DNA of 64,000 nucleotides from an uncultured Ignavibacteria bacterium. Lineage in GTDB: Bacteria; Zixibacteria; MSB-5A5; UM-FILTER-46-8. The translations under genes were made by a program, and so were the position numbers. Below are positions 15,043 through 63,102 of this stretch, in pieces (position 1 is the stretch's first letter; every line of letters begins with the position of its first letter). The stretch is from NCBI GenBank assembly GCA_964563085.1, contig CAZLVS010000011.1, positions 8,328 to 72,327 of the forward strand, read 5' to 3'. The notes below the pieces were generated by a model that was not told the DNA's origin, did not search any database, and saw nothing but the letters and a program-made list of their open reading frames with translations.

Positions 15043-15289
15043 TCTACGATAAACTCTTATTATAGTTTTTGTAATGCAAAAGTCAAGTTAAATATGGATT
15101 GAAAATTATTTCGCAATACTGTGATTTGCATCTACATTTTTAAGTTATTTCCAATCATATTCGTAATCCGGCATATTGTTGTCATTAAAGAGATGATTTC
15201 TACCTTTGATAATATCACGGCGAGGAGGCGTGTTAAACCGAATCCTACGCAAATCTTTGGCGTAAGTCGGATTCTCCCGATAAATCGGG

Positions 15290-15410
15290 GAGCGAGAAAC
15301 CCGACATAGTGGTATTTTATGCGGCGTCAAACGTCCACTCCATAGGCCTGTGGACTCGTTTGAAGCCTTCGGACAGACGAGAACGTCTGACCGCGCCCAA
15401 GACCGCTGTC
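15290..15410 (+). repeat. Copy A of an approximately 100-150 nt tandem-hairpin intergenic element (core hairpins 15323..15393)
   Basis: It shares 'gagcgaGaaac..gacatagYggtatttt.tgcggcgtcaaacg...cgtttgaHgcc-ttcgg-acagac...gtctgaccgc' with the copies at 17885 and 57000. Hairpin 1 is ggcgtcaaacg/cgtttgaagcc with an inserted tccac/gtgga sub-stem. Hairpin 2 is cggacagac/gtctgaccg. Confidence 0.5.
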
Positions 15411-15658
15411 CTCCGTTTAATCGGGGACGGCAAGCGGATTGCTCCGCCGTTCAGCGCTCCAGCGCTGACGTAAGAAAATATATGGTTGGCGAACGTCCCC
15501 GCCAAAGGCGGGCAAGCTCGTTCATCAGCTTAAATCATAAACAAGGCATACGGGGACGTATGCCTTGCAAGATATTGTCACGACATGCATATCCCCGCTC
15601 TTAGCGGGACTAAACATGCCACTTTTACTTCTAACAACTAAAAACTAATAGCTAACAA

Positions 15659-17713
15659 TTATTTCAGAAGCGTCATACGCTTTCTGTACACCTGGTCGTT
15701 GACCGTAAGTTTATACAAATATATACCAGATGCATACTCGGAAGCATCCCAGTTGACCGAATGATATCCGGCGTTCTGCTTGGTGTCGATCAGGGTTTCC
15801 ACTTTCTGGCCTAATAGATTGTAAACATCCAAACTGACCTCAGAACTGGCTGTTAACGAATACGCTATCTCGGTGCTGGCGTTAAAGGGATTCGGATAAT
15901 TCTGCTGCAATGATACTTTGTAAGGAATCGCTCCATCTTCATCCACACTCGCCGCTCCTACGTACATATTAACCGGAATATATACATGCTTTGCATACGG
16001 ATCGTTGCAGTACACTTCGAGCATACCGCGATAGATTCCCGCGGGATGATCTCCGGCATCACACGTTACGCTCACATCCAGAAATCCTCCGAGCGGCACA
16101 ACTCCATCATCGATATCCGTTGATAGCCAATCGAATTCCCCGGGAGGGGTACCCAAAATAAATTTCACTGCCTTGCCGTCAGTAGTGAATGGCTCATGAT
16201 AAGCGACCTCGAGCCCGACCGTCCCGGCGGCATTTTCCATCCCCGTGGAAGCCAGGTCAAGAGGACCATTGGGATCCATAGATTCGTACTGAAGAACAAC
16301 CGTATTGGGTTTAACCAAAACGATCTGGAATGTATATTTGCCATCATGCAATCCATCCGGAATATCCACCCAGGAAATAACAGCCGAATCGGAATTATTG
16401 GTATAGAAATAGATATTCGCATTGGAGTCGGGATTCGGAACGAGGTTCGCCCAGAATGGCGCTATGATATTGTTGGGGTCAGCATCGTTCGGGAAGCGGC
16501 GCGCATAGCTGGAGGAGGAGGTGCTATCGGTAAAAGAAGCCCATCCATTCGAACATACGCAAATACTGTTATAGCTATTTCCATAATAATTGAAATCGAA
16601 ACCCAGCGGAAGATGACCGGAATTACCATAAGAGGGGTTCCCCGAAAACTCTATAATCTGCCCTTCCTGGGTGATATCGACCCAGTCATAAACAGGACCC
16701 CCGGTAGTGTCAGAATGCAGCCAATAATATCCGAATGAATCAACAATCGATGATGGCTCTAAATCGATAGCGAAATAGAGGGCGCGATCGCCGGTGTTGC
16801 CCAGCTGCAGAATATCGGTAGATTGTCCGCCTTCTTCAACATTAACCTCAATATTCTCCAGACTGTAAGTCAGAACCGGATAATTGCTGTTGTAAATCGG
16901 TCTCTGGGTAAACCGCCCCATTCCGCAGGAATAATAGGGTATGTAGAAGTAGCCAGAGTCCCCCCAACTCGCTCCCCAGCTATTTTTGCATATCCAGGCG
17001 CCATCGCCATCGCACATATTATCATCCCAGCCAACGATCACGATTGCATGGTTGGACGGTTCACTACCCGGGCCGTCATAGCAATCCCAATGAAAACCAT
17101 CGAAAACCGTAAATGTCGACGAAACAGGGCCATTAATCAATGAATTTTTGATAGATTCCACGTTGTTGGGAATACTCTCTGCATCGTCAAGGAAAACCAT
17201 GGTGACGCAACTGTCCTGGCCGCAATTCATATCTTGAGCTCTGTACGGATAACATTCTTCTTCAACCGCGCCGGTGTTGAAGAAAAGATTATAAGCATAA
17301 TGAGCCGAACCGCCATTGCAGCTTCCGCCGTATAAGTTACAGTCCACCACCTGCTGTTCGGATAAATCCCATTCCACCGAATCGGCAATGATAATCGCTG
17401 ATTCAAACGCCCCTACACCGGCAAACGCCCAGCAGGATCCGCAATCTCCCTGGTTTTTCACGGGAGTAACGCCGCCGTTTTCGCGCCAATCCCAACGTTC
17501 ATCGTCCAGCAGCAATGGCGGAGGTGGCTGCTTATCTAATTCCTGGAAAAGTTTAATTTCCTCTTCTGAAGGTTCAAAACCAAGGGCGCCGATTCTGTTC
17601 TTCGGATCCTGATTATCTCCCTCAGCCGCATTAAGATAGGTTACGGCGAAGAACAGCTGCAGCAAAAATGCAGCCCTCACTCCCAGAGTTACGCTTACCG
17701 CCAATTTTCTCAT
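15659..17713 (-). CDS. Secreted papain-family (C1) cysteine peptidase with a T9SS type-A C-terminal sorting domain
   Basis: Signal peptide. Active-site 'QGDCGSCWAFAGVGAFE'. C-terminal 'NYPNPFNASTEIAYSL...GIYLYKLTVNDQVYRKRMTLLK' is a Por/T9SS CTD. Confidence 0.8.
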   Translation of the reverse strand: MRKLAVSVTLGVRAAFLLQLFFAVTYLNAAEGDNQDPKNRIGALGFEPSEEEIKLFQELDKQPPPPLLLDDERWDWRENGGVTPVKNQGDCGSCWAFAGVGAFESAIIIADSVEWDLSEQQVVDCNLYGGSCNGGSAHYAYNLFFNTGAVEEECYPYRAQDMNCGQDSCVTMVFLDDAESIPNNVESIKNSLINGPVSSTFTVFDGFHWDCYDGPGSEPSNHAIVIVGWDDNMCDGDGAWICKNSWGASWGDSGYFYIPYYSCGMGRFTQRPIYNSNYPVLTYSLENIEVNVEEGGQSTDILQLGNTGDRALYFAIDLEPSSIVDSFGYYWLHSDTTGGPVYDWVDITQEGQIIEFSGNPSYGNSGHLPLGFDFNYYGNSYNSICVCSNGWASFTDSTSSSSYARRFPNDADPNNIIAPFWANLVPNPDSNANIYFYTNNSDSAVISWVDIPDGLHDGKYTFQIVLVKPNTVVLQYESMDPNGPLDLASTGMENAAGTVGLEVAYHEPFTTDGKAVKFILGTPPGEFDWLSTDIDDGVVPLGGFLDVSVTCDAGDHPAGIYRGMLEVYCNDPYAKHVYIPVNMYVGAASVDEDGAIPYKVSLQQNYPNPFNASTEIAYSLTASSEVSLDVYNLLGQKVETLIDTKQNAGYHSVNWDASEYASGIYLYKLTVNDQVYRKRMTLLK

Positions 17714-17884
17714 GTTTCCTCCGTTTTAGTTGCTATTTTAAAGACTACTATAACCCCATCCCTATAAGTTAAGATACAAAATTAACAATTTTCAAGCTTC
17801 ATCTAATTTCCCTAAGAAGGTATCTATTTACTATATAATACATAATCTCTCACATGCAAGTATAAAACGAAGCCGCTTAAAGTT

Positions 17885-17995
17885 GTTCTCGTGGCGTCAA
17901 ACGTCCTCGTTTGACGCCTTCGGTAAGACGAGTTTACGCGCTTCTGGCGCGGTAGTCTGACCGCACCTGAGAAGGATGCGTTAGTCCAGAGGGTT
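17885..17995 (+). repeat. Copy B of the tandem-hairpin intergenic element (core 17893..17963)
   Basis: Perfect 11-bp hairpin ggcgtcaaacg-tcct-cgtttgacgcc, then ttcgg, then the second hairpin cggtaagac...gtctgaccg with an inserted cgcgc/gcgcg sub-hairpin. Downstream 'gatgcgttagtcca..g.gttgacc' also matches copy C. Confidence 0.5.
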
Positions 17996-18231
17996 GACCG
18001 CCGGAGCATACAGCAGCTTAATTAGTTAAAAACCATAACTTGTCTTTGTAAAAATTCAGTCGACGATATTTGTAGAACCTGGCGGATTAAGCAACTCGAA
18101 TTATTCCGCAAATTTTCGGAACAAAAGGAACGATAATAAAATTTGTATTTGTTTTGAATCAAATAACGAGTTATCTAATCATACAAACAAATGGGGAAAT
18201 CTAATAACTGAGTTTCGAAAGGAGAATTATA

Positions 18232-18543
18232 GTGATTAATATATCGGATAAAGCAAGTAAAGAAATTCAGAAAGTTTTGCAGAGCGATAGAGCTAAAGGC
18301 AAACATCTTATTATCTTCGCTAACGGATTCGGATGAGGCGGACCCAGTATGGGAATGGCTCTGGATGAGTCCAAAGAAGGTATGAAGGAATTAGAGTCGA
18401 ATGGTATAACCGCATACATCGATCCTGTTCTGTATGAGCAGGTTAAGCCGGCTGGCGATATCAGGATTGAATATGTTGACGATCCTTTGCGGGGGAAAGG
18501 ATTTCAGATAAATATCGGCAACAGCGGCGGATGCAGCTGCTAA
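18232..18543 (+). CDS. HesB/IscA-like Fe-S assembly-type protein with an in-frame TGA (18334..18336) at the conserved first Cys; candidate selenoprotein
   Basis: GTG start with a GGAG RBS 7 nt upstream. The translation 'VINISDKASKEIQKVLQSDRAKGKHLIIFANGFG-U-GGPSMGMALDE...FQINIGNSGGCSC' aligns to the IscA/HesB pattern (..GLRLGV..GGCSG......NPNA..CGCG), with TGA exactly where the first conserved Cys lies. The ORF track only reports the post-TGA half (18349..18543). Confidence 0.6.
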
Positions 18544-19050
18544 TTTACTGCAAAGGGGGGCTTCTGCCATATTTACGGCAATATCGTAATCCATATTAAT
18601 ACTACAAATGGGGATTAAACCTCTTGACAACCGCATTTACTTATCTATTTTTACGCTCGGTCTTGAGGAGTAAAGGCGTCGGGTGAGGGTGAAACTGTCT
18701 CAAAACCTCAAAAAGATTACTTCGTCGTCCCGCATTTCGCCCCGATGAAATCCCGCATTCTGCGGGACGCAGTCGGGGCAATGACAGCAGTAGGAGTCAT
18801 TGCGAGCCCGAAGCTTGCTGAGGGCGCGGCAATCTCCTATTCTCACGCAATGCGTTAAATTAGGGATTTGAGATAGCTTCGAGGGCACCCGACGGCACGA
18901 TTCAATGGAGGGACGCGCTTCGTCGCGTCCATTGGTTACTTTTTTAAACGAAGGATTTATTCCCGTCTTGTATTCTATTCACAGAATAAAGAGAAAATCT
19001 CCAATCCCGAACTTATAGATATAATAACAAAAATAGAATGTACAGGAAAA

Positions 19051-43215: not shown

Positions 43216-43459
43216 TTTGGCTTGTATTATTCATAAATCCTATCAACGGTAGCGGAAGCCTTGCGCTTCCGGCGTTTCTTTGAGATACTTTATTTCAATC
43301 TGCAAATGACCTGCTCCTATTGAACTCCCGAAGGACAGGCTTTCGGCTGCGTATTAATGGGTTTCATGAATTATCCGGGTTAGGCGTCAAATCGATTTAC
43401 CGATTAGAGAGATAAAAATATTCTTGCTATCTGAAATGATCGATTATTATAATATTATC

Positions 43460-46567: not shown

Positions 46568-47479
46568 TCAAATAGCAACTTCTATACAGCGGTAGGAAAG
46601 TTCATTGAGGGGTAGTTCGCCCAGCAGAAGAACCGTATCGCCGCCTCCGGCGCCGGTAGGTTTAGCATAACCGCCGTTGTCCAATGCCCATCGCTTGAGC
46701 TCATCATGCACGGGGATACGATAGCTTATCCCTGCACTTGAACAGCATTTCGTAACTAAAGACGTGAACTCATCCAGGATGTCATAAAGGTCGGGCGGAG
46801 GTATCCTAAACCATTTCTCAGCCAATTCATCGCTTTTGTCAATCAGGCTTTTAAGACTTTTATTTTTCCTCCCGGTGTTTTTTATCCATTGGTTGAATTT
46901 CGTAACGAACTCACGGGTATCCGCTGACTTCCCGGTCCAAACCAGATTAATCGGTATCTTATAATCCGGATTGGGAGTATGCAATTGGTCCATGAAGAAA
47001 CCGTCCCGGTTACGCTTGAATACAATCGGTTTACCATAGGCGCAGACCGCGACATCGGCCCCGCTCCCCCGACCGCCTTGGGCGATTGTATGTGCATCGA
47101 TGGCGTATATCGCTGCCGAATACCTGTTCATCTCCCACGGTAAACCGGCGCGCTCAAATCGGAGTGCAATAACGCCGGCTGCTTCAGCGGCGGAGGAACC
47201 GATCCCCAGCTTAACCGCAGCGCCGCTGCCATCGCGAAAGTAAAAATCCGATCTGTCAATATCAACGCCCTGCAGGGGATGAGTGTGCTCGTAACCATCC
47301 AGTTCGGGAACAGGATATTGTATGGCGTTTTTCACAACCGGATTGGTGTTCTCCGCAGTTGGCGCATTCGATTCAGTGATTTTAAGGAAGCGAGGGACGG
47401 GGAAGAGAACAGCGCTTCCACCATAGAGAACAGCGTATTCCCCCGACAACATTACTTTTCCTGGCATGGTTACAGTCAT
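46568..47479 (-). CDS. GHMP-family kinase, most likely phosphomevalonate kinase (short form) of the mevalonate operon
   Basis: 'GKVMLSGEYAVLYGG', 'KLGIGSSAAEAAGV', 'GAGGGDTVLLLG'. Operon context with mvaD/HMGR-MVK/idi-2. Confidence 0.65.
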   Translation of the reverse strand: MTVTMPGKVMLSGEYAVLYGGSAVLFPVPRFLKITESNAPTAENTNPVVKNAIQYPVPELDGYEHTHPLQGVDIDRSDFYFRDGSGAAVKLGIGSSAAEAAGVIALRFERAGLPWEMNRYSAAIYAIDAHTIAQGGRGSGADVAVCAYGKPIVFKRNRDGFFMDQLHTPNPDYKIPINLVWTGKSADTREFVTKFNQWIKNTGRKNKSLKSLIDKSDELAEKWFRIPPPDLYDILDEFTSLVTKCCSSAGISYRIPVHDELKRWALDNGGYAKPTGAGGGDTVLLLGELPLNELSYRCIEVAI

Positions 47480-48456
47480 TTTTCTATTGAAATTATCTCG
47501 GCGCCTCCAGCCGGTTTACAGGAAATAAAGTGTGATTCACCGAGGTGATGCAGTATATTCTTAGTAATCTTTTCAGAATCACTCTGCCTGCATAAGACAA
47601 TAACGTTAGAACCGGCATCAACCGTGAAGTAGGCTTGTATACCGCTCTTTTCGCGAATGGAGCGAATTCCCCTAATAATTCTAAAGGTTGAATCATTCCA
47701 GTACAAAAGCGGTGGGCGTGATGCCATCATACAGCAATGCATGGCAAGCGCGTTTTCTTCCATTATACTGCCGATTGCTGCGAAATCATCCACTTCGATT
47801 GCAGACAGCATTTTCCGGTAATCCTCTCGGGCTTGCTTCACCCAACTGGAGTAATAGGGCGAAGTCTCCGCGCAGCGACGCATACCGAGCGATGAGGGCG
47901 TATCCTTTTGCTCGGAATGAGCGAGTAATACTATCATGCTCCATGGAACATCTTGCGGCTCTTTCAGTAATCTTGCGGACGGATCATCGTTGAGTGGAAA
48001 GGCTGATAATCCCCCGGTAATAGAACGCGCTGCCGAACCGCTTCCCTGGCGCGCTAATTTAGATAATTCCCTGTCGGAAAGCTTTCTTTCTGAGAATCCG
48101 CTCAAAGCTTTTGCTAATGCCGCGAATCCCGACGCGCTCGATGCCAGACCGGAAGATGTTGGGAAGCTGTTTTTCGATTCCAACAAAAAACTGCCCGCGA
48201 TTAGCCCTTTGTCCCGCCAGAGATCAAGATATTTCACGAGACGATGGTTTACTTCACCGGAAGTTTCCGCACCATTAAGGATGAATATATCGTTAGATTC
48301 TTCGGTTCGCGTTATGGTTGTTTCGGTAGTAAGTTTATCCAGAGCGAGCGAAATAGAGGGAGTGGCGGGAATATTCCCCGCTGTATCTTCCCGTTTTCCC
48401 CAATATTTTATCAAAGCGATATTCGAATATGCCCGGGCGATCACCCGCCGTATCAC
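47476..48456 (-). CDS. mvaD: Diphosphomevalonate decarboxylase
   Basis: 'AYSNIALIKYWGKRED', 'SSGLASSASGFAALA'. Confidence 0.85.
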   Translation of the reverse strand: MIRRVIARAYSNIALIKYWGKREDTAGNIPATPSISLALDKLTTETTITRTEESNDIFILNGAETSGEVNHRLVKYLDLWRDKGLIAGSFLLESKNSFPTSSGLASSASGFAALAKALSGFSERKLSDRELSKLARQGSGSAARSITGGLSAFPLNDDPSARLLKEPQDVPWSMIVLLAHSEQKDTPSSLGMRRCAETSPYYSSWVKQAREDYRKMLSAIEVDDFAAIGSIMEENALAMHCCMMASRPPLLYWNDSTFRIIRGIRSIREKSGIQAYFTVDAGSNVIVLCRQSDSEKITKNILHHLGESHFISCKPAGGAEIISIEK

Positions 48457-50759
48457 CGCAGCGCTCCCAACGTAAATGGAAACACCATCGGGAAATCATG
48501 GGATAGAGATTCCATCCAATCGAACTGGCTCCCGGGTTCGACCAAACCGATGACCGCGCCGCCGCCTCCGCTGCCGGTTAGTTTAGCGCCAATTGCGCCG
48601 TTTTCCAGCAAAAGCTCCACAGCCCTATCCAGCGCCGGAGTAGATACGCCCAGTTTTGCCAGAAGCTCATGATTCCGGAACATCAGTTTTCCGATTTCGT
48701 AGGTGTCACCGGTTCCCAATGCTATTCCGGCATCGACAGTCAGATTCCCGATATCTTCCAGGATACTGTTAACGTACTCCGGTTTTTGGTCGCGGAACCT
48801 CGCCACTTTCTTAACCAGCTCTATCGTTCTGGCGCCCGGTTCCACCAGGCATATTACGCCGCTTACCGGAGAGGGAACCTGGATCGGTAAGAACTCCCGC
48901 GGAGGTCCTTTACGGAACCAGAGCACCCCCTCAGAGAGAACGGTAGCCGCATCCATCCCGCTGGGATGGCCATGGAAAATCGCCTCCAGGTTCTGAACTT
49001 CATCAAAGAAATCGCTGTCCCATCTTTTTGACCGCCTCAGATGCTTATATTGCCGTAAAGCTGAGCACAGAGCGATTGAAAATGCTGCCGACGAACCTAA
49101 ACCCATGCCGGGAACCAGTTCGGATTCGATCTGGATGGCGATAGGTTCATTTCTTAGATCATATATTTCTAAGGCTACATCCACCGCATTTGAAAACAAT
49201 TGGATATCCTGGTCCGATTTGGGAACGGAAAACACCTTTTTAAAATGTGGATGAAGAAACCGGGGACCGTCAGGGTCCCTGGTAACTTTTAGCTTAATGC
49301 CGATATTGATGGCAGCGGCAATCCCGGGATAGTTGTAAACGGTAGCGTGTTCGCCAAACAGTACGATTTTACCGGGTGCGAATGTTTCTACTGGCAATTC
49401 ATCCTCTTCCTCTGTTCGTTTGGGCTGCTTCTGCAGCTTACGATATATATCCTCCGCAACCGTAATTTTAACCTCGCCCCGCCTTATCATCTCCTGCGCG
49501 ACTTCTTCCACGGCATTAGGAGGTACGCCAACGCTAACCGCAACACTGCGAGCATGCAGCGCCATGTGCCCCTTCTGAATGCCAACTGTGCTTAACGCCA
49601 ACAGGGCGGCGAAATTCTGCCCCAAGCCTACTGCGCTCAGCAATCCGGCTAATTGGCTGGCGTTTTCCACGCCGCTTATTGCGCGTAGAATTTGCACTCC
49701 GGGATGAGCTTTGACCGCGCCGCCCACGCTGCCGGTTTGCAGCGGCAGTTCGATTTCACCATGCAGACATCCGTTGGAAATCTTGTAGGTGGTAAGACCT
49801 CGGTAGATTCCATCTCGAGCGGCATATGCATGCCCGCCGGCTTCGATTGCTCGCCAGTCCTGACCCAATGCCAGGGCAGCGGCGCACAGTCCGTTAAATA
49901 TACCTTTGTTATGTGTCGCAGCCCGATAGGGATCCACATGCGCCAACCTATCAGCCTCAACCAAACGATGCGCCACCTCCTCGCCGGTGAATTCCTTCGT
50001 GGTTAGGTGTTCGAACGGCAATGTGAATTCGGCCCGAGCGATTCGCTTATCAGCGAGATTGGAAAGGATGCGAAGGTGCACACGGCCTCCGGTCACCATT
50101 TCAATCAGTGAGCCGACCGCTTCGCATGCGTAGTTGACCGCATTTGCTCCCATCGCCTCACAGACGTTAAAAAGCAGATGAACCACCAGCATCTCGCCGA
50201 CGCCTTCCCCACCATCCAAAATCCTGGTCTCGATATCAAAAACGCCGCCGCCTCTCTGCACCATTCGGGGATTTACCAGGTTCGCTTGAGCTATAATTTC
50301 ATCTTTATAATTCCCAATCTGTCTGACAGCTTCCTGCGGGTCTTTCAGGTCGAGTACCTGCACCTGCCCGATCATCACCGGATCGTTGATTCGGGTACGA
50401 AATCCTCCGCCCTTGCGAATTATCAGCGCCGCTTTTGATGCTGCGGCTATTATTGATGCTTCCTCGATCGCCATGGGAACCAGATACTCCCTGCCATCGA
50501 CCAGAAAATTCAATCCCAATCCGAGGGGTAAGCCGAAGACTCCCACGGCATTCTCCACCATGTTAACTGCATGCTTCATTCTCAGAGCGTTACCATTGCG
50601 GAGTTGCGAAACTTGTTCATCGTTTAGATTAAAACTCCGCGCCAGAAATGCGAGCCGTTGTTCAACCGACAATCGGTAAAATCCCGGTATCCGCGAAGTT
50701 CTGAATTCGGTTCCTCCGATAGGAGGTTTCTTAATGAATCGAAATCTATCCATTATCAA
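48453..50759 (-). CDS. Fusion protein: class II HMG-CoA reductase (N-terminal, about 430 aa) plus mevalonate kinase (C-terminal, about 330 aa)
   Basis: HMGR-II motifs 'ENAVGVFGLPLG', 'EAMGANAVN', 'GSVGG'. After the linker 'KRTEEEDELPVE' come MVK motifs 'APGKIVLFGEHATVYNYPGIAAAI', 'GMGLGSSAAF', 'KLTGSGGGGAVIGL'. There is no internal stop or start. Confidence 0.8.
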   Translation of the reverse strand: MIMDRFRFIKKPPIGGTEFRTSRIPGFYRLSVEQRLAFLARSFNLNDEQVSQLRNGNALRMKHAVNMVENAVGVFGLPLGLGLNFLVDGREYLVPMAIEEASIIAAASKAALIIRKGGGFRTRINDPVMIGQVQVLDLKDPQEAVRQIGNYKDEIIAQANLVNPRMVQRGGGVFDIETRILDGGEGVGEMLVVHLLFNVCEAMGANAVNYACEAVGSLIEMVTGGRVHLRILSNLADKRIARAEFTLPFEHLTTKEFTGEEVAHRLVEADRLAHVDPYRAATHNKGIFNGLCAAALALGQDWRAIEAGGHAYAARDGIYRGLTTYKISNGCLHGEIELPLQTGSVGGAVKAHPGVQILRAISGVENASQLAGLLSAVGLGQNFAALLALSTVGIQKGHMALHARSVAVSVGVPPNAVEEVAQEMIRRGEVKITVAEDIYRKLQKQPKRTEEEDELPVETFAPGKIVLFGEHATVYNYPGIAAAINIGIKLKVTRDPDGPRFLHPHFKKVFSVPKSDQDIQLFSNAVDVALEIYDLRNEPIAIQIESELVPGMGLGSSAAFSIALCSALRQYKHLRRSKRWDSDFFDEVQNLEAIFHGHPSGMDAATVLSEGVLWFRKGPPREFLPIQVPSPVSGVICLVEPGARTIELVKKVARFRDQKPEYVNSILEDIGNLTVDAGIALGTGDTYEIGKLMFRNHELLAKLGVSTPALDRAVELLLENGAIGAKLTGSGGGGAVIGLVEPGSQFDWMESLSHDFPMVFPFTLGALR

Positions 50760-51841
50760 ATTCCTTGTTTATCGAGCCATCCAAAGTTCAAAAGCCATTC
50801 TCTCAATTCACCGGTGAATATCCTGGGAATCCTCTTTAGTTCGGTTAAGTCGGCGGCGCCGGTCAAAAGCATAGCTGTCTTCAGCTCATGTATCATTTGC
50901 TCCATAAATTCGGCAGCTCCGTCTTTGCCATTATCAAGAAAACTAAGTAATATAGGGCGGGCAAATCCGGCGATATCCGCTCCCACAGCGATCGCTCGCG
51001 CAGCATCCAGGCCGTTTTCAATTCCGCCTGATGCCATTATGCAAGCCTTCTCATTTCGGATCCTGCGCGCCGCAATAAGACTGAATGCGGTCGGTATCCC
51101 CCAATCGGAGAATGTTTTGCCAGTTTGTTTGAGGAGTTTATCCGCCGCCCGATACATCTCCACTTTGGTCCAAGAAGTCCCCCCGGCTCCGGATACATCC
51201 AGATATTTAATCCCGATTTTCGATAGTTTCTTCAAACTCTCAGGGTCTATCCCGGCTCCCGTCTCTTTAACCATGACTTTGCCGTCTATCTTATCATTCA
51301 ATGCAGCCAAAGCATCGAGTAAACCGCGAAAATCCCGATGACCCTCATCCTGAATTAGTTCCTGTGCCGCATTCAGATGGACGCAGATTCCATCAGCTTC
51401 GATATCATCCATCAGACCAACTACGGCATCCAGGGGATACTCCCGTAACTCTCCAGCGCCGATATTACCCAGCAGGACGCCATCCGGTATCCATTTACGA
51501 ACCGCGAAATCATCTTTCATCTCCGGGTGGCGAAATATCACTCGCTGACTGCCCACACCGAATGCGATTCCGAACTCCGATGCGGTTTCTGCCAGGCCGC
51601 GATTCATCTCCCCGGCGAATTCGGCGCCTCCGGTCATGCCGGTAATCATCAGCGGATATTTCAGTTTTTTCCCGAAGAATTCAACTTCGGTCCGGATATC
51701 CCTTAAATCCAACTCCGGAAGGGCGCAATGCAGCAGGATTATATCACCCAGCATGGTGTTCCGACGGTGTTTCACTTCTTCCTCGGCAACAATCCGTAAA
51801 TGCTCCGATTTCCGCCTGGATATGGTCACATCATTTTCCAT
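50756..51841 (-). CDS. fni: Isopentenyl-diphosphate delta-isomerase, type 2 (FMN-dependent)
   Basis: TIM-barrel IDI-2 pattern 'PLMITGMTGG', 'FGVGSQR', 'VKETGAGI', 'LDVSGAGGTSW'. Confidence 0.85.
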   Translation of the reverse strand: MENDVTISRRKSEHLRIVAEEEVKHRRNTMLGDIILLHCALPELDLRDIRTEVEFFGKKLKYPLMITGMTGGAEFAGEMNRGLAETASEFGIAFGVGSQRVIFRHPEMKDDFAVRKWIPDGVLLGNIGAGELREYPLDAVVGLMDDIEADGICVHLNAAQELIQDEGHRDFRGLLDALAALNDKIDGKVMVKETGAGIDPESLKKLSKIGIKYLDVSGAGGTSWTKVEMYRAADKLLKQTGKTFSDWGIPTAFSLIAARRIRNEKACIMASGGIENGLDAARAIAVGADIAGFARPILLSFLDNGKDGAAEFMEQMIHELKTAMLLTGAADLTELKRIPRIFTGELREWLLNFGWLDKQGI

Positions 51842-52117
51842 TATTTGATTTATGGGTTACCCTCCGATTATTGAACTGGTAACTGGGAATCAGATTAAAT
51901 CACCTTTCTTTGAAACTAACCTTTAACGGACTAACAGTTAAAATTATTACACGTTCCAAATATTTCTATTTCATTCGGAAACTCAAATCAAATATTAACC
52001 GACAATATTAATCGTAAAAACTGCTCAAAGTCAATAAATTTTATAAAAAAACAGCCCCTGATAGTATTAGAAAAAGCAGTTTCTTTACCAGCTTTTTCGT
52101 CCTGACTTTGTATGGAG

Positions 52118-53098
52118 CTATCTGTACAATGTTCCCTTCTCCTTACGTTCCCGGAGATGTTCCAGCATATCCTTAGTCATGGCATCCAAATCCCATTTCG
52201 GCTCCCATCCCCATTCTTCCCTTGCCGGAGTGTCATCTATGGAATTAGGCCAGGAATCAGCTATCTCCTGGCGGTAATCCGGCTCATATGTAACTTCGAA
52301 ATCCGGGATATATTTCTTAATGGAAGCTGCTAATTCCCCCACAGTAAAGCTCATTGCTGCATGGTTGAAGTCGCTGTGGTGTTTTAGCTTGGAGAAATCG
52401 GCTTCGGCTAACTGGATCGTACCCTCGATAGCGTCAGGCATATACATCATTGGCAGCTTAGTGTCCTCTCTGACGAAGCATGTATACTTCCCTTTATCGA
52501 CAGCTTCGTAATAAATCGCCACCGCATAATCGGTGGTTCCGCCGCCTGGCAAGGTTTCATAAGAGATGATTCCGGGATAACGGAGCCCGCGGATATCGAG
52601 CCCGAACCGCTTTACATAATAATCGCACAGAAGCTCGCCGCATACTTTGGTTACGCCATACATAGTGGTTGGCTTGAGTACAGTTTCCTGAGGAGTATTA
52701 TCAAGCGGAATACCGGATCCGAATACGGCTATGGAACTGGGGATTATTATCCTTGCCATTTCGTATTTCAGCCCCAGTTCGAGGATGTTTATAGTTCCGT
52801 TCATGTTGACATCCCAGCAGAGCTGAGGATTCTTTTCACCAACTGCCGAAAGTATGGCAGCCATGTGATAGACCGTATCTATGTCATACTTTTCTATCAT
52901 TTCCTCGACGGTCTCAATCTTGTTGACATCGATAAAATGAAACGGTCCCGAATTCCTGAGTTCCTCGGAGGGCTGTGTCTTTCTCCCTGTAGCAACAACA
53001 TTTTCCGCGCCATATCTTTTGCGCAGCTCCATTGTTAATTCTGAACCGATCTGCCCAACAGCGCCGGTGACCAGTATCTTCTTCATCTCTTTTTTCAT
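52118..53098 (-). CDS. tdh: L-threonine 3-dehydrogenase, NAD-dependent epimerase/dehydratase (extended SDR) type
   Basis: 'KILVTGAVGQIGSELTMELRKRYG', 'SGPFHFIDV', 'YHMAAILSAVGEKNP' resemble UDP-Gal-epimerase-like TDHs. Confidence 0.75.
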   Translation of the reverse strand: MKKEMKKILVTGAVGQIGSELTMELRKRYGAENVVATGRKTQPSEELRNSGPFHFIDVNKIETVEEMIEKYDIDTVYHMAAILSAVGEKNPQLCWDVNMNGTINILELGLKYEMARIIIPSSIAVFGSGIPLDNTPQETVLKPTTMYGVTKVCGELLCDYYVKRFGLDIRGLRYPGIISYETLPGGGTTDYAVAIYYEAVDKGKYTCFVREDTKLPMMYMPDAIEGTIQLAEADFSKLKHHSDFNHAAMSFTVGELAASIKKYIPDFEVTYEPDYRQEIADSWPNSIDDTPAREEWGWEPKWDLDAMTKDMLEHLRERKEKGTLYR

Positions 53099-53432
53099 AG
53101 TTTCTCTCTTTTAATTTTAAACATTTCATTTTCAAGTTACAAAATTCACAATTAATGTTTTCACGTCAATAATGCAAGTAAATTAGCTCATCTCGCAATT
53201 TGGATTTAATAGTTTCCGATAACCCGAGGTCGTTCGCAACTAACCCTGATAGATATTGATTGTAGATGACATTTAATAGTTGACATGTTTAAGCATATAT
53301 TATACATTAATCAGGTTCAGGTAGTGGACTATGTCCGTTCCAAAACTGTAATAAGAATTATCTTCTAATGAGATTTAAACCTCTCTAAACGTTTAATAAA
53401 GAACATAACCCTCACACTCAAGGAGTAGTAGT

Positions 53433-56400
53433 ATGAAACGTTATCCAGCGCCTGCAATTTTGATTTTGTTGGCAATCCTCTTGCTGAGTCTGAATTCGAC
53501 AGGATTCGCGATGCAAGCAGACACAAAAGGGGAAGCGCTTTACGAGCTGAAAGTCAATTACCCCGGAGTTTCTACTTATCAATCCGGTAAACGAATTACC
53601 AGCTTATGGGGCATAACTTTCGGCTACGGCGCCAATCCGCAGGCAACCGCAGAGAACTTCCGGATGAATTATTCCGAAATCTTCGGTGTGGCACCGGCAG
53701 ATTTGAAACCCCACAGTCTCCTTCCCGACCAACGTCATACTCAACCCGTGATGTACAATCGGGAGAATGATTCTTATAAATTCACCCTGGTTTATTACAG
53801 CCAGTATAAAGAGGATATTCCGGTATTCCGTTCCGAACTCAGATTGCTGGTTCGCAACGAAGCCAATTATCCTTTGACGCTGGCGCGTTCGGCTTTGAAA
53901 GACTTAAAGGACTTCCGGGTTCCCTCCGGAGCAACCTTAAACAAAGGCTTAGCCGAAACAGCCGCGAAATCTTTCAATCCCAATCTGGATTACTTCGAAG
54001 AACCTCGTTTGGTTATCTGGGCTGGCGCCAACGAGGAAGCTGCTGAACCGAGATTAGCAATGGAAATTATCGGCGACAACAATAGGCCTGCTACTGACGA
54101 TTATGAAAAGTGGTTACTATTGGTCGATGCTTTAACCGGTGAGATACTGTATTCCGAAGATATGATTCTTAACGTTGATGTCGATGGCAACGTTAGCGGC
54201 AGAGCCACAGACAATTTCGCCGCAGAGATCTGCGACGATGAGGTCTCCTTCGGCATGCCTTATTCCCGTGTTTACATTCAGGGCGGAAATACTTCTTATG
54301 CCGATGAGTTCGGTGATTTCACCATACCGTTCGGTGGATCAGCGCCGGTGGATGTTTACTCCCATTTGCGCGGCTCCTGGTTCCGTGTGTATAACGAAGC
54401 CGGCGCCGAAGCGGAACTGGACACCACCGTAACCCCTCCGGGTCCGGCGAATTTCCTGCACAATTCATCCAATAGCAATGAATATGTGAGGGCGCAGGTT
54501 AACGGATACCTGCACGCCAACGTCGTTAGGGATTTTACACTGACTTATAATCCCTCCTACCCGGGTTTACAGCAAACCGAGTTTCCGGTAAATGTCAACA
54601 TCAACAGCAGTTGTAACGCTTATTACGATTATCAATCCATCAACTTCTACCGCTCCGGCGGCGGATGCCCGAATACAGCGTTTGGAACCGTGGTTCACCA
54701 CGAATACGGTCACCATTTGGTTGCCATGGCTGGAAGCGGCCAGGGGCAGTACGGCGAGGGTATGAGCGATTGCATGGGTGTAATGATTACCGATGATCCC
54801 GGTCTCGCTTACGGTTTCCTCGGAAACTGTAATGAACCGCTAAGGAACGCCGACAACAATAAGCAATATCCCTGCAGCGGCGGAATACATGACTGCGGAC
54901 AGCTCCTTTCCGGATGCGTTTGGGATACGCGCAACGCCTTAATGGCAAACTATCCCAACACCTACATGGATATTCTGGCTAATTTGGCGGTTAACGCTGT
55001 CTTACTGCACACAGGGGATCTGATCACTCCACAGATTACTATAGATTACCTGACCCTGGATGATGATAACGGTAATATCTATGACGGAACTCCTCATTAT
55101 AATGAGATCTGTTCCGGCTTCGGCGCTCATAATATGGATTGCCCCGATCTGCAATTGATCGCCTTCGATTATCCCAACGGTCTGCCGGAACTGTTTGATC
55201 CGGATGGCGGAACCACGATTCGCGTGGAAGTTTCAGGCATTACCGGTTCACCGGAGCCCGGCACCGGAATCATGTATTACAATGATGGCGGCGGATGGGA
55301 ACAGCAGCCGATGGATGTTGTATCTCCGAATGTTTACGACGCTGTCTTCCCGCCGTTTGAGTGCGGGCTGGTGATCGAATATTACTTCAGCGCAGAAACC
55401 ACCGACGGTTTCGTAGCTTATGATCCCTCGGGCGCTCCCGGAACCACTTACTCGGGTGTAGCCGCTCATGGTATGATCACGGTGTTCGAAGACGATTTCT
55501 CGACTGACCAGGGCTGGACAGGTTTGGGTGGTCAGGGCGAATGGACAATTGGACCTTGTATGGGCGGTAATGGCGACGACTATTACGGCGGTCCCGATCC
55601 TTCCGAAGACCATTCACCGACTTCGGATAACAGGGCGCTCGGTAACGACATGACAGCCGGCGATGGTGATTATGAAAACTACCTCGGAACCACTTACTGG
55701 GTAACCTCTCCCAATATCGATTGCTCCGGCGTCTATGCATTGCAGTTGAGCTTCTGGCGGTGGCTCGGAGTAGAACGGGATTGGTACGATGAAGCCTACT
55801 TCCAGGCATACAACGGTTCTTCCTGGATCACTCTTTGGGAAAATGGCAGCGAGACTATCGACGAAGCTTCATGGAGCGAGCAGAATTACGACCTCACAGG
55901 AATCGCCGACGACAATCCCAACTTCAAGATCAGATTCGGAATAGGGCCCACTGATGGTTCCTGGCAGTACTGCGGGTGGAATATCGATGATGTGCAAATC
56001 GTGGCTTATACCTGCGAACCGTCTGCAGATATCACTGTGGATATGATACCGGATAATCCTCCGATCGAAGTTCAGCCGGGCGGATATTTCACCTATACCG
56101 GAATACTGACCAATAACACTGCTCAACCTCAGAGCTCCGATGTTTGGGTGATGTTGGATGTGCCGGGTTATGGCAGTTACGGACCGGTTCAGCAGTTCAA
56201 CAATGTGCCTCTGGGGCCGAACCAAACCTTAAGTTATGAAGGCGCGCGGCAGAATATACCGGGATTCGCACCGTTGGGCGAGTATGATTATATCGCTTAC
56301 TGCGGCGACTATCCCAATTCGCCGGTCGATTCGGCATCCTTCACATTCACCGTTGTTCAGGGCATCGGCGGAGACGCTGACGGATGGATTTTGAACGGCT

Positions 56401-56693
56401 GGTTCAATGATGATATCGAAACTCTGCCTTCAAGGACCGAACTATTGGGCAACTTCCCGAATCCGTTTAATCCGACCACAACCTTCAGCTATGCCTTAGC
56501 TGATGAATCCAATGTGTCTCTGGAAGTCTACAATCTGATGGGACGTAAGGTAGCGACGGTATTTGAAGGTCATCAGGAAGCCGGTTACAGGACAGTTCAG
56601 TGGAATGCAGGAGATTATTCCTCAGGCGTCTACTTCTACAAGCTGACCGTTGATGACCAGGTATTTACCAAGCGTATGACCTTGTTGAAGTAA
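53433..56693 (+). CDS. Secreted thermolysin/fungalysin-like (M4/M36-type gluzincin) zinc metalloprotease, 1086 aa, with a T9SS C-terminal sorting domain
   Basis: Signal peptide. 'VVHHEYGHH' HExxH plus downstream 'GEGMSDCMG' (the E..SD third-ligand motif of M4/M36). Pre-CTD domain shared with 60199..61848 and 63103..64000. CTD 'NFPNPFNPTTTFSYAL...GVYFYKLTVDDQVFTKRMTLLK'. Confidence 0.8.
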   Translation: MKRYPAPAILILLAILLLSLNSTGFAMQADTKGEALYELKVNYPGVSTYQSGKRITSLWGITFGYGANPQATAENFRMNYSEIFGVAPADLKPHSLLPDQRHTQPVMYNRENDSYKFTLVYYSQYKEDIPVFRSELRLLVRNEANYPLTLARSALKDLKDFRVPSGATLNKGLAETAAKSFNPNLDYFEEPRLVIWAGANEEAAEPRLAMEIIGDNNRPATDDYEKWLLLVDALTGEILYSEDMILNVDVDGNVSGRATDNFAAEICDDEVSFGMPYSRVYIQGGNTSYADEFGDFTIPFGGSAPVDVYSHLRGSWFRVYNEAGAEAELDTTVTPPGPANFLHNSSNSNEYVRAQVNGYLHANVVRDFTLTYNPSYPGLQQTEFPVNVNINSSCNAYYDYQSINFYRSGGGCPNTAFGTVVHHEYGHHLVAMAGSGQGQYGEGMSDCMGVMITDDPGLAYGFLGNCNEPLRNADNNKQYPCSGGIHDCGQLLSGCVWDTRNALMANYPNTYMDILANLAVNAVLLHTGDLITPQITIDYLTLDDDNGNIYDGTPHYNEICSGFGAHNMDCPDLQLIAFDYPNGLPELFDPDGGTTIRVEVSGITGSPEPGTGIMYYNDGGGWEQQPMDVVSPNVYDAVFPPFECGLVIEYYFSAETTDGFVAYDPSGAPGTTYSGVAAHGMITVFEDDFSTDQGWTGLGGQGEWTIGPCMGGNGDDYYGGPDPSEDHSPTSDNRALGNDMTAGDGDYENYLGTTYWVTSPNIDCSGVYALQLSFWRWLGVERDWYDEAYFQAYNGSSWITLWENGSETIDEASWSEQNYDLTGIADDNPNFKIRFGIGPTDGSWQYCGWNIDDVQIVAYTCEPSADITVDMIPDNPPIEVQPGGYFTYTGILTNNTAQPQSSDVWVMLDVPGYGSYGPVQQFNNVPLGPNQTLSYEGARQNIPGFAPLGEYDYIAYCGDYPNSPVDSASFTFTVVQGIGGDADGWILNGWFNDDIETLPSRTELLGNFPNPFNPTTTFSYALADESNVSLEVYNLMGRKVATVFEGHQEAGYRTVQWNAGDYSSGVYFYKLTVDDQVFTKRMTLLK

Positions 56694-56728
56694 AAAGTAG
56701 CCATTCAACCGGAGTATTAACCTTTGCA

Positions 56729-56760
56729 GGGGCGAGTTTTGCACTCGCCCCTTTTTTTTA
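56729..56760 (+). terminator. Intrinsic terminator of the metalloprotease gene
   Basis: 9-bp stem ggggcgagt/actcgcccc, loop tttgc, followed by T8. Confidence 0.75.
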
Positions 56761-56999
56761 TGGTCTAATCCGGATAATTGATAAAGACCATTAATCCGTA
56801 GTCAAAGGTTTGTCCATCTCATGGAGGTTTCAACGCCTCCGGCGTGGACAAAAGTCTTGCACAAATATTACCGAACAGGAATGTCCGGTCTACCGGTGGT
56901 TGTAATCATTGTTCCGCCATCGGGTGTCCTCATCCAACACCCATGTCTCGATTGCATCGGGACAAAACGAGCCGCAGGTCGGGTTCTGAGCGAGCGTAG

Positions 57000-57135
57000 C
57001 GAGCGAAAAACTGACATAGCGGTATTTTTGTGCGGCGTCAAACGTCTTCGTTTAACGCCTTCGGTCAGACAAGGAAGTCTGACCGCACGCAAATGAGATG
57101 CATCAATCCATGAGTCAACCGTCAGGGCGCATGAT
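57000..57135 (+). repeat. Copy C of the tandem-hairpin intergenic element (core 57034..57085). It is followed at 57195..57234 by hairpin aaggctg/cagcctt plus T6 on the + strand.
   Basis: 'gagcgaaaaactgacatagcggtatttttgtgcggcgtcaaacg-tctt-cgtttaacgcc-ttcgg-tcagac-aaggaa-gtctgaccgcac'. The second hairpin is a perfect 9 bp. Confidence 0.5.
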
Positions 57136-57254
57136 AATTCAGTTAGCCTGGAGCCATAAATCCGGGGAGTTTGATGTCAAAATCCACCAATCAATCAAAA
57201 GGCTGCCCGAGATTGGACAGCCTTTTTTCTAATAGTTATTAATTATCGTAGGAA

Positions 57255-58898
<1,644 letters not shown>

Positions 58899-58915
58899 TT
58901 ATCTCCTCCCCAAAA

Positions 58916-59203
58916 CTATTCTATGATTGCTAAAATGTCAGATTCGCGCATTATCAGGTATTCGGTATCATCAACTGTCACTTCAGTACCGGAATACTTA
59001 CCATATAACACCTTGTTACCGGATTTCACCTGCATTTCCACTAATTTACCATCGTCGGAAACCCGACCAGGACCTACCGCCACGATTTCACCTTCCTGAG
59101 GTCTTTCTTTGGCGGTGTCGGGAATGATAATTGATCCCTTTTTAGTTTCTTTTTCCTCCAAAGGTCTGATTAATACCCTATCAGCAAGAGGTTTTACGTT
59201 CAT
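58916..59203 (-). CDS. groS: Co-chaperonin GroES. The start is taken at the ATG preceded by AGGAGGA rather than the longer ORF-track start.
   Basis: '[33 protein letters not shown]...'. Confidence 0.9.
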
Positions 59204-59271
59204 ACCTTCCTCCTTATTTGGTTTATATGTATTTGTTAAGTTACTATTAATCAATAGATTATCAAATCCTG

Positions 59272-59298
59272 TTAGCACTCGCCCGGGTGGAGTGCTAA
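59272..59298. promoter_or_regulatory. CIRCE operator (HrcA binding site) upstream of groES
   Basis: Perfect TTAGCACTC-N9-GAGTGCTAA inverted repeat, 69 nt upstream of the groES start. Confidence 0.88.
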
Positions 59299-59399
59299 CA
59301 TTTGAACGCAGAAATTAATCGCGAGTTCCACTTTTGTCAAGAAATTTTTTGATTTTTTGCATTTTAAAGCGTTTAATAGATATCAAACGGAGGAAGCTT

Positions 59400-59912
59400 A
59401 TGAAATACGGACAGACAGTATTATATATTGGCATATTGATAGCGGTTTGTATGCTTGCCAGTTCATGTTGTATATTGGGCGGCGTATGTAAAACATCGAA
59501 AACTGACATTAGCGGCTTCGATACGGGATCAGAGATTCTCCGAGCTTTGGATGTACGAATATTAAGCCGTTCAATGGGTTATGCGCTGGGATCGCCGTTT
59601 GACATGAAGATGCGCGTTACTAACAAGTCCGATGATGAGATCATTTTGGAATTTCCCGAAGGTTATGTTTTCGATTTCTACATTTTTCAAAAAAATGAGT
59701 TAGTGTATCGCTATTCGGAGGATGAGCGGTATCCCACCGGCTTGAGGGAATTTAAGCTTGCGCCGGGTGAATCCAAGGACTTCGGAGGAATCTGGCTCTG
59801 CAAAGACAACAACGGCGTCTGGGTACGGGGAGGACGCTATGAGATGATAGGGATCATTAACACCGACCCACCGGTTTTGTCTAATATCCTGCAATTCGGA
59901 TTGACAGATTAA
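59400..59912 (+). CDS. Lipoprotein with a BsuPI-like (intracellular proteinase inhibitor, Ig-like) domain
   Basis: Lipobox-like 'CMLASSCC'. 'LEFPEGYVFDFYIFQKNELVYRYSEDERYPTGLREFKLAPGESKDFGGIW' matches the BsuPI pattern (beta-sandwich with a conserved W). GGAGG RBS. Adjacent to a secreted metzincin. Confidence 0.5.
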   Translation: MKYGQTVLYIGILIAVCMLASSCCILGGVCKTSKTDISGFDTGSEILRALDVRILSRSMGYALGSPFDMKMRVTNKSDDEIILEFPEGYVFDFYIFQKNELVYRYSEDERYPTGLREFKLAPGESKDFGGIWLCKDNNGVWVRGGRYEMIGIINTDPPVLSNILQFGLTD

Positions 59913-60198
59913 GAAATATATCAAGCCTAAACGAGCATGACTCCCTTCCCGGGAGGTTCTTCGGGTTTTTCGCTTACTGCATTCGCTCAGAACCGACTTA
60001 CGTGCGGTTGTCGGGTAATTGCGCCTGACGGTGCTTTCACGCGGCAGACAAGTTTTTCTGCTTCGGGCGGTTTTACGCGCCTGCGACGTGGACATATATC
60101 TTTTTTCGGATGCAAGGGCAGCCTGGCCAAGGCTGCGCCTTGACCATGCTGCCCTCGTAAATTCACTCGTCTAACGATTGAAGACGATCGACCAGGGA

Positions 60199-62679: not shown

Positions 62680-62982
62680 ATGAACTCAAAAAACAAAAAA
62701 ATAACCGGTTCGGTTTTGAAAGTCGGGGTAATCGCATTGTTTGTGGCTATAATTGCCTGGTTTGGACTATCTATTGGACACCGGGACAGATCGCACACGG
62801 ACCGGACGCAAAACCCGGTAGTGATACTAACCCTGGAAGATGATCCCAATTGTCCCTACGACTATGAACCATGCCGTTATTTCAGCGGCGATGAATACTT
62901 GAGCGTGGAAGTTGGAGATACAATCTACAGCCCGCAGGGATATGCTCACGTCGTCATGGAAAAGACCGTGCTCTATGAATAG
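62680..62982 (+). CDS. Small hypothetical membrane-anchored protein (100 aa)
   Basis: GGAGG RBS, N-terminal TM 'VGVIALFVAIIAWFGL', followed by a terminator. Confidence 0.45.
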   Translation: MNSKNKKITGSVLKVGVIALFVAIIAWFGLSIGHRDRSHTDRTQNPVVILTLEDDPNCPYDYEPCRYFSGDEYLSVEVGDTIYSPQGYAHVVMEKTVLYE

Positions 62983-63083: not shown

Positions 63084-63102
63084 CTATCCCGAACTGCTAA
63101 TA

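What the first reader, a model, noticed from the sequence alone, without database searches (positions are those of the whole stretch)
15270..15420. Three-copy tandem-hairpin intergenic element; copy A lies downstream of the T9SS C1-peptidase gene
A conserved element of at least 90 nt recurs at 15290-15410, 17885-17995 and 57000-57135, all in + orientation. Shared sequence: gagcga.aaac..gacatag.ggtatttt.tgcggcgtcaaacg-[loop]-cgttt.a.gcc-ttcgg-.cagac-[loop]-gtctgaccgc(ac). It folds as two adjacent hairpins. Hairpin 1 is ggcgtcaaacg/cgtttgacgcc, perfect in copy B. Hairpin 2 is cggtcagac/gtctgaccg, perfect in copy C. The copies differ by insertions of extra sub-hairpins (tccac/gtgga in A; cgcgc/gcgcg in B), so stem geometry is kept rather than primary sequence. 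Copies A and B bracket the 15659..17713 T9SS C1-peptidase gene. Copy C follows the 53433..56693 T9SS metalloprotease and is itself followed by hairpin aaggctg/cagcctt plus T6 (57195-57234), which suggests a roughly 230-nt + strand transcript ending there. I do not recognise this as any named RNA family or REP consensus.
Basis: seen in the sequence. Interest (0 to 1): 0.8.

Follow-up and report, generated by a model that had tools for sequence, protein, structure and literature searches.

The report
Species-specific intergenic double-hairpin DNA repeat
Three copies of a roughly 100-150-base double-hairpin repeat lie between genes of an uncultured Zixibacteria genome, and all three are missing from the same sites in its closest sequenced relative, so it looks like a small inserted REP/MITE-type repeat and not a conserved regulatory RNA.

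Summary
No other copy is in the window. The RNA reading is not supported. There is no Rfam match, no consistent promoter or terminator, and no compensatory change in either hairpin; all four stem substitutions break pairs. The 'terminator' after copy C belongs to groEL and is conserved in a relative that lacks the element. In the closest relative (Zixibacteria MAG GCA_014730175.1; GroEL 96% aa, about 87% nt), all three orthologous intergenic regions align on both flanks. Each copy lies inside a window-specific segment (15291-15536, 17869-18039, 56815-57150). The covariance model finds nothing in 46 kb of that relative, in about 75 kb of more distant Zixibacteria, or in phage, plasmid and E. 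coli collections. Pattern scans of GTDB genomes and JGI metagenomes gave only chance hits. The core is an inverted doublet of a roughly 30-nt palindromic unit. Other hairpin modules nearby also differ in presence between the two genomes. Best reading: a lineage-restricted, dispersed extragenic palindromic repeat (REP/BIME- or MITE-like). The mobilising enzyme and genome-wide copy number are unknown. Modest interest.

The parts
15286..15402 (+). Copy A core: 5' hairpin module P0, hairpin 1 with extra TCCAC/GTGGA sub-hairpin, TT linker, hairpin 2
   Evidence: Sequence; R1 match 92.9 bits; A-C blastn 15261-15400
15291..15536 (.). Window-specific segment holding copy A. The closest relative has 16 nt here, between conserved flanks
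   Evidence: blastn and MAFFT against L050
17858..17972 (+). Copy B core: no P0 module, perfect hairpin 1, hairpin 2 with extra CGCGC/GCGCG sub-hairpin. Firm homology runs 17893-17991
   Evidence: Sequence; R1 match 92.2 bits; pairwise alignment
17869..18039 (.). Window-specific segment holding copy B. The relative has 22 nt here
56997..57094 (+). Copy C core, the shortest form: P0, hairpin 1, TT, perfect hairpin 2. Homology to B continues to 57114 and homology to A starts at 56973
   Evidence: Sequence; R1 match 113.7 bits
56815..57150 (.). Window-specific segment holding copy C. The relative has 115 unrelated nt here
57197..57232 (.). Bidirectional intrinsic terminator at the 3' end of groEL (57255-58895, - strand). 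It is not part of the element and is conserved in the relative that lacks the element
56728..56760 (+). Terminator of the T9SS protease gene (53433-56693). Copy C lies downstream of it
56757..56893 (-). Copy of a second, unrelated intergenic repeat ('family 2'), also at 43223-43385 (+) and in the relative's groEL intergenic region. It flanks the segment that holds copy C

Best explanation
The element is a lineage-restricted, non-coding, dispersed extragenic palindromic repeat. Its closest analogues are REP doublets/BIMEs and small non-autonomous (MITE-like) elements.

Shown:
- The core is an inverted doublet of a roughly 30-nt palindromic unit (arms GTCAAAC/GTTTGAC and GTCAGAC/GTCTGAC, with flanks ATTT..GTGCGG / CCGCAC..AAAT).
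- Optional hairpin modules surround the core.
- At all three sites, DNA has been gained or lost since this species split from its nearest sequenced relative.
- The copies sit among other hairpin modules that also differ in presence and position between the two genomes.

Inferred:
- The hairpins matter as single-stranded DNA or cruciform structures recognised by an enzyme encoded elsewhere in the genome. A HUH/Y1 (RAYT- or IS200/IS605-type) transposase would fit hairpin ends without terminal inverted repeats and the shared strand.
- Any effect on neighbouring transcripts (stability, termination) would be a side effect.
For: 1. In all three loci the closest relative (GCA_014730175.1; GroEL 96% aa, HisRS 87% aa, about 86-89% nt) aligns on both flanks. 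The copy lies in a window-specific segment: 15291-15536, 17869-18039 and 56815-57150.
2. Model R1 finds no copy in 46 kb of that relative (L027, L031, L050). It finds none in about 75 kb of more distant Zixibacteria (L026, L044, L045, L047). Pattern scans of GTDB species genomes, JGI metagenomes and IMG/VR gave only chance hits. Phage, plasmid and E. coli searches found nothing.
3. There is no covariation in hp1 or hp2. All 4 stem substitutions are disruptive.
4. Every reading frame carries stops in some copy, and a search of 1.8 billion proteins found no spurious-ORF relatives.
5. The gene context differs at each copy: tandem, divergent and convergent.
6. Dyad symmetry: R1 matches the reverse strand of its own copies at 33 and 26 bits. 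Half 1 against the reverse complement of half 2 scores above 98.5% of shuffles.
7. Other intergenic modules behave the same way. Family 2 sits at 43223-43385, at 56757-56893 and in the relative. A hairpin module at 15432-15470 sits at a different locus in the relative. An unrelated window-specific hairpin insert lies at 18728-18916.
8. REPIN spacers are reported to vary in sequence yet always keep a hairpin (PMC3337134). The loop insertions seen here follow the same pattern.
Against: - Only three copies are known, and the genome-wide count could not be obtained.
- No transposase, RAYT or integrase is encoded in the window (Pfam; annotations).
- There are no convincing terminal inverted repeats or target-site duplications. 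B has only an imperfect 7-9-nt duplication, A has none, and C cannot be resolved.
- Copy boundaries are ragged. A-C homology includes sequence that is native at site A in the relative (GTCGGATTC...CGAG). Insertion therefore cannot be told from deletion, and a simple cut-and-paste unit is not defined.
- The copies differ by 10-30%, so this is not a recent burst.
- All five indels between copies are self-complementary. A possible closing helix around both hairpins has two both-sided changes in copy B. These features would also fit a structured RNA.
Confidence: 0.6

Rival explanations
1. A young family of paralogous small or structured RNA genes read from the + strand. The double hairpin, enclosed by a closing helix, would be the functional fold, and the variable hairpin modules would be expansion segments.
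For: - All three copies are on the same strand.
- All indels are self-contained hairpins.
- The P0 hairpin of A and C keeps pairing through G-U only on the + strand (folds).
- A candidate closing helix shows 2 pairs changed on both sides in copy B, with 89% of cells paired. It appears in the ssDNA folds of B and C.
- Folds are more stable than shuffles.
Against: - There is no Rfam match, even at E up to 10.
- No + strand promoter-like site lies upstream of any copy, and A and B have no + strand terminator.
- The terminator after C is the groEL terminator, conserved without the element.
- The element is absent from all three orthologous sites in a relative with 96% identical GroEL.
- Both strands fold equally well.
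- hp1 and hp2 show no covariation.
- The closing-helix signal is reached by 124 of 500 shuffles and was found post hoc.
Confidence: 0.2
2. A cis-acting element tied to T9SS protease genes, such as a UTR structure or insulator controlling the C1 peptidase and the metalloprotease.
For: A and B bracket the C1 peptidase gene, and C follows the T9SS protease gene.
Against: - Position and orientation relative to the genes are inconsistent. A lies after the peptidase terminator, B lies upstream on the opposite strand, and C lies after the protease terminator.
- The relative keeps both orthologous protease genes (683 aa and 1086 aa) without the element.
- Two other T9SS cargo genes in the window (60199-61848, 63103-63870) have no copy.
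Confidence: 0.05
3. Double-stranded DNA binding sites: four GTCARAC half-sites forming two operators for a dimeric regulator or nucleoid protein.
For: There are four related 7-nt half-sites in alternating orientation, and the primary sequence of the arms is strongly conserved.
Against: - 19-nt insertions between the half-sites of hp1 (A) and hp2 (B) would destroy the spacing needed by a dimer. The same insertions are harmless at a hairpin apex.
- Copies are absent from the orthologous promoters and intergenic regions of the relative.
Confidence: 0.07
4. Not mobile as a unit. The copies would arise from segmental copying or gene conversion between hairpin-rich intergenic regions, with palindromes growing by template switching, and no dedicated enzyme would be involved.
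For: - Boundaries are ragged and mosaic.
- C carries a copy of sequence that is native flank at site A.
- B and C share a 3' flank that exists without the core in the relative.
- Several unrelated hairpin modules are shuffled between loci.
Against: - The three copies lie up to 41.7 kb apart, with no other shared flanking DNA.
- All three sites are empty in the relative.
- All copies share one strand.
Confidence: 0.08

Closest known systems
REP sequences, BIMEs and REPINs (REP doublets mobilised by RAYT transposases; Bertels and Rainey, PMC3116915, PMC3337134)
   Same: - Extragenic location.
- Short imperfect palindromes of about 25-30 nt.
- Two related units in inverted orientation forming a larger hairpin-capable doublet.
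- Sequence between the conserved arms varies but stays self-complementary.
- Species-specific sequence.
- Embedded in mosaics with other short motifs.
   Different: - The two units are only 2 nt apart, and each folds on itself rather than onto its partner.
- No invariant GTAG-type head is present.
- Copy number is unknown: 3 in 64 kb.
- No RAYT gene was seen.
- The phylum (Zixibacteria) is far from the Proteobacteria where REPINs are described.
Bacterial MITEs such as Correia/NEMIS, ERIC and RUP
   Same: - Size of 100-250 nt, non-coding and intergenic.
- Several diverged copies.
- Presence/absence differences between close relatives.
- Strong predicted secondary structure.
   Different: - No terminal inverted repeats.
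- No clean target-site duplication.
- No parent insertion sequence identified.
PATEs and other IS200/IS605-derived miniature elements (ssDNA transposition by HUH/Y1 TnpA)
   Same: - Two similar subterminal hairpins on one strand.
- No terminal inverted repeats and no target duplication.
- Strand-specific orientation (3 of 3 on one strand).
   Different: - The hairpins are adjacent rather than at the two ends.
- No conserved 4-5-nt target at a defined left junction.
- No TnpA or TnpB in the window.
Integron attC sites and VCR-type repeats
   Same: Direct repeats of about 120 nt that fold as hairpins and bracket a gene (A and B around the peptidase gene).
   Different: - The arms do not fit the RYYYAAC / GTTRRRY core sites.
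- The neighbours are housekeeping genes (pth, hisS, groEL).
- There is no integrase and no cassette array.

Membership tests
REP / REPIN-RAYT | Extragenic location | tested here: met
   All three copies lie between ORFs. Every frame is interrupted by stops in at least one copy.
REP / REPIN-RAYT | Unit is a short imperfect palindrome; two units in inverted orientation form the element | tested here: met
   hp1 is 26 nt and hp2 is 24 nt in copy C. R1 matches the reverse strand of its own copies (33 and 26 bits). Half 1 against the reverse complement of half 2: 29 of 2000 shuffles reach the score; the direct orientation scores 1.0 against 8.5.
REP / REPIN-RAYT | Tens to hundreds of copies per genome | not testable with these tools
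   Only 64 kb of an 87.6-kb contig is available. Attempts to extend it failed. The source genome gave no match in the genome-contig scan.
REP / REPIN-RAYT | A single-copy RAYT (Y1/HUH) gene flanked by copies | tested here: inconclusive
   No Y1_Tnp or other transposase domain occurs among the window ORFs (annotations). The rest of the genome was not seen.
REP / REPIN-RAYT | Conserved GTAG/GTGG-type tetranucleotide at the foot of the palindrome (from my own knowledge of the REP literature) | tested here: not met
   The feet read ATGC, TCGT and GTGC before hp1. The reverse complement after hp2 reads GGCG, GGTG and CGTG. There is only a loose GTGCGG motif and no invariant GTAG.
MITE | Terminal inverted repeats | tested here: not met
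   The inverted-repeat search of the three regions finds only internal hairpins and weak long-range pairs with 71-86% complementarity.
MITE | Target-site duplication at filled versus empty sites | tested here: inconclusive
   B: CTTAAAG / GTTAAAAAC against a single GTTCAAAC in the relative. A: the insert lies between CGAG and TTAAA with no duplication. C: not resolvable.
MITE | Presence/absence polymorphism between close relatives | tested here: met
   All 3 sites are empty in GCA_014730175.1. The polarity (insertion or deletion) is not established.
Any Rfam RNA family | Match to a curated covariance model | tested here: not met
   No match at gathering thresholds over the whole window. At E up to 10 there were only unrelated weak hits.
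Independent sRNA gene | Own promoter and terminator; conservation at syntenic sites in relatives | tested here: not met
   No + strand promoter-like site lies upstream of any copy. The only terminator nearby is the groEL terminator. The element is absent from syntenic sites. Transcription itself cannot be tested here.
Integron attC | R''/R' core sites (RYYYAAC / GTTRRRY), cassette array, integrase nearby | tested here: not met
   The arms GTCAAAC/GTTTGAC do not fit the core consensus. The neighbours are housekeeping genes and no integrase is present.

The most novel reading that the evidence does not exclude
The element is the non-autonomous partner of an undescribed hairpin-recognising (HUH/RAYT-like) mobilisation system in Zixibacteria, or a mobile structured RNA gene whose fold is the double hairpin closed by a third helix. 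Its loop insertions would then reflect hairpin-targeted insertion of still smaller palindromic modules.
Probability: 0.15. Interest if true: 0.5.

Novelty: new member of a known kind. Interest (0 to 1): 0.25.

Why it matters
- If the reading is right, this is a first sequence-level description of a REP/MITE-like dispersed palindromic repeat in the candidate phylum Zixibacteria.
- It gives an example of how intergenic DNA in these genomes turns over by gain and loss of hairpin modules.
- Such repeats break metagenomic assemblies and can be mistaken for regulatory RNAs, so recognising them helps annotation.
- It opens no long-standing question. Its value would rise only if a new mobilising enzyme or a real transcript were found.

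Tried and rejected
1. Rfam. Nothing at gathering thresholds on the whole window, and nothing relevant at E up to 10 on the three regions.
2. Pattern scans of genome contigs and metagenome contigs. The 13 and 11 hits were all unrelated GC-rich chance matches of about the expected number. Two viral scans also gave only chance hits.
3. Phage, plasmid and E. coli BLAST. Nothing apart from one E=0.4 hit. I recalled from memory a resemblance to the E. coli REP consensus (TGCGGCGT.AACGCC). It gave no BLAST match and I do not rely on it.
4. Searching for other copies through spurious ORFs. I sent the open - strand frame across copy C against 1.8 billion proteins. Only unrelated repeat proteins came back.
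5. Extending the contig with end proteins and GroEL. Three look-ups returned 'not on record'.
6. Distant relatives (P0002, P0247, P0250, P0123). The element is absent. Synteny is only partly kept, so they do not show whether the window gained the element or the relative lost it.
7. Strain variation across three Logan samples. There are 12 SNPs in 21 kb and only one at the edge of copy A, which is uninformative.
8. GC skew as a guide to replication direction. It follows gene orientation and is uninformative.
9. TSD and TIR hunting. The 15-19-nt direct repeat around copy A (CCCGATAAATCGGGGA / CCGTTTAATCGGGGA) looked like a target duplication. Its left copy is native sequence in the relative, and a similar motif is native next to copy C, so I do not claim it as a TSD.
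10. A closing helix with two compensatory pairs. I recorded it, but it is not significant with three sequences.

Full report
**Observation**

The three regions were read directly. A conserved element is present on the + strand at A 15286-15402, B 17858-17972 and C 56997-57094.

- Hairpin 1 (GGCGTCAAACG / CGTTTGACGCC) is perfect in B.
- Hairpin 2 (CGGTCAGAC / GTCTGACCG) is perfect in C.
- The two hairpins are joined by TT.

The arm motifs are far more frequent than in shuffles. blastn of the window against itself recovers A-C (E=1e-8) and B-C (E=1e-5) as the only non-coding repeats apart from one other family. A covariance model built from the three copies and run with filters off finds no further copy in the 64 kb. 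Every reading frame has stops in at least one copy, so the repeat is non-coding.

**Anatomy**

The copies are mosaics.

- A and C share a 45-nt 5' hairpin module (P0) that B lacks.
- B and C share about 30 nt after hairpin 2 that A lacks.
- A has two further small palindromes (CCCGATAAATCGGG and CCGTTTAATCGG).
- All five length differences are self-complementary.

The core has dyad symmetry. The model matches the reverse strand of its own copies (33 and 26 bits). Half 1 aligns to the reverse complement of half 2, including the flanks ATTT..GTGCGG / CCGCAC..AAAT, better than 98.5% of shuffles, and it does not align in direct orientation. The core is therefore an inverted doublet of a roughly 30-nt palindromic unit.

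Folding is much more stable than shuffles, as RNA and as DNA, and equally so on both strands.

**Is it a known RNA, or an RNA at all?**

Rfam gives nothing at gathering thresholds and nothing relevant at E up to 10.

In hairpins 1 and 2, 16 of 20 pairs never vary. The 4 substitutions all break pairing, one of which would be G-U on the - strand. There is no compensatory change.

A closing helix around both hairpins can be drawn, and it has two both-sided changes in copy B. However, 124 of 500 shuffles reach that signal, and I found it post hoc.

No sigma-70-like site lies upstream of any copy on the + strand, and A and B have no + strand terminator. The hairpin plus T-run after C (57197-57232) is the bidirectional terminator of groEL.

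**Organism and relatives**

The neighbouring proteins place the window in Zixibacteria. The same organism occurs in three Logan samples with 12 SNPs per 21 kb, and A and B are present in all of them.

The nearest other genome is MAG GCA_014730175.1 (GroEL 96%, HisRS 87% aa). Three of its contigs were fetched (L027, L031, L050). They are collinear with window 5428-30762 and 47133-64000 at 84-89% nt identity.

**The key result**

All three orthologous intergenic regions align well on both flanks. Each copy lies inside a window-specific segment.

| Copy | Window-specific segment | Relative has here |
|---|---|---|
| A | 15291-15536 | 16 nt |
| B | 17869-18039 | 22 nt |
| C | 56815-57150 | 115 unrelated nt |

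The relative keeps the C1 peptidase, the 1086-aa T9SS protease, pth, the HesB-like gene and the groEL terminator, all without the element.

The model finds nothing in the 46 kb of this relative; the best hit, 14.8 bits, is the peptidase terminator. It finds nothing in about 75 kb of more distant Zixibacteria. Exact-pattern scans of GTDB species genomes, JGI metagenomes and IMG/VR returned only chance hits. Phage, plasmid and E. coli collections gave nothing.

**Surroundings**

Other hairpin modules behave the same way.

- A roughly 160-nt 'family 2' occurs at 43223-43385, at 56757-56893 and in the relative's groEL intergenic region.
- The hairpin module at 15432-15470 is found at a different locus in the relative, with one stem pair changed on both sides.
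- 18728-18916 is another window-specific hairpin-rich insert.
- A more distant relative has an integrase-bearing element directly downstream of groEL.

Intergenic DNA in this lineage turns over by gain and loss of palindromic modules.

**Interpretation**

The best-supported reading is a lineage-restricted dispersed extragenic palindromic repeat, closest in kind to REP doublets/BIMEs/REPINs and to MITEs. In REPINs the spacer varies in sequence yet always keeps a hairpin (PMC3337134), which matches the loop insertions here.

What is shown:
- repetition;
- a non-coding nature;
- a dyad-symmetric palindromic architecture;
- restriction to one species;
- presence/absence at all three sites.

What is inferred:
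- mobility as a unit;
- a trans-acting hairpin-recognising enzyme, with the HUH/RAYT type as the best fit;
- the polarity of the events, meaning insertion here versus deletion in the relative.

Points against the reading:
- only three copies are known;
- the window has no transposase;
- there are no terminal inverted repeats and no clean target duplication;
- the boundaries are ragged, and some sequence shared by A and C is native flank at site A in the relative.

A young sRNA family remains possible (about 0.2), because all copies share a strand and all indels preserve hairpins.

**Verdict**

The element is a new sequence family of a known general kind. Interest is modest (0.25).

Noticed in passing
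window 18232-18543 (+): A HesB/IscA-like ORF with an in-frame TGA at codon 35 (GFG-TGA-GGP). Its best NCBIfam matches are the selenoprotein subfamilies IscA_HesB_Se and HesB_rel_seleno, both below cutoff. The same TGA is conserved in the close relative and in a distant Zixibacteria genome. It is probably a selenoprotein that gene callers truncate to a 64-aa ORF.
   Followed up: partly
window 43223-43385 (+), 56757-56893 (-); L031 11759-11913: A second, unrelated intergenic repeat of about 160 nt ('family 2'). Unlike the element studied, it is shared with the closest relative.
   Followed up: partly
window 15432-15470 and 15584-15622; L031 8587-8625 and 8836-8874: Two short hairpin modules are about 90% identical to modules at a non-orthologous intergenic region of the relative. 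That region has about 290 nt more than window 59923-60142. In the first module one stem pair is A-T in the window and G-C in the relative.
   Followed up: partly
window 18728-18916: A window-specific, hairpin-rich insert of about 190 nt. It lies between the HesB-like gene and a conserved terminator, is absent from the relative, and is unrelated to the three-copy element.
   Followed up: no
L044 5519-6811: In a Zixibacteria MAG with 86% identical GroEL, a tyrosine integrase and an HTH_17 protein lie directly downstream of groEL. In that genome an integrated element sits at the position where copy C lies in the window.
   Followed up: no
window 15278 (end of Logan contig SRR7048218_11545): One short-read assembly of the same organism ends 8 nt before copy A, as repeats often cause. 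Two other samples assemble through it, so this is only anecdotal.
   Followed up: partly
window 15659-17713, 53433-56693, 60199-61848, 63103-63870: Four genes with T9SS C-terminal sorting domains lie within 64 kb. Their C-terminal domains are the main coding repeats of the window.
   Followed up: no
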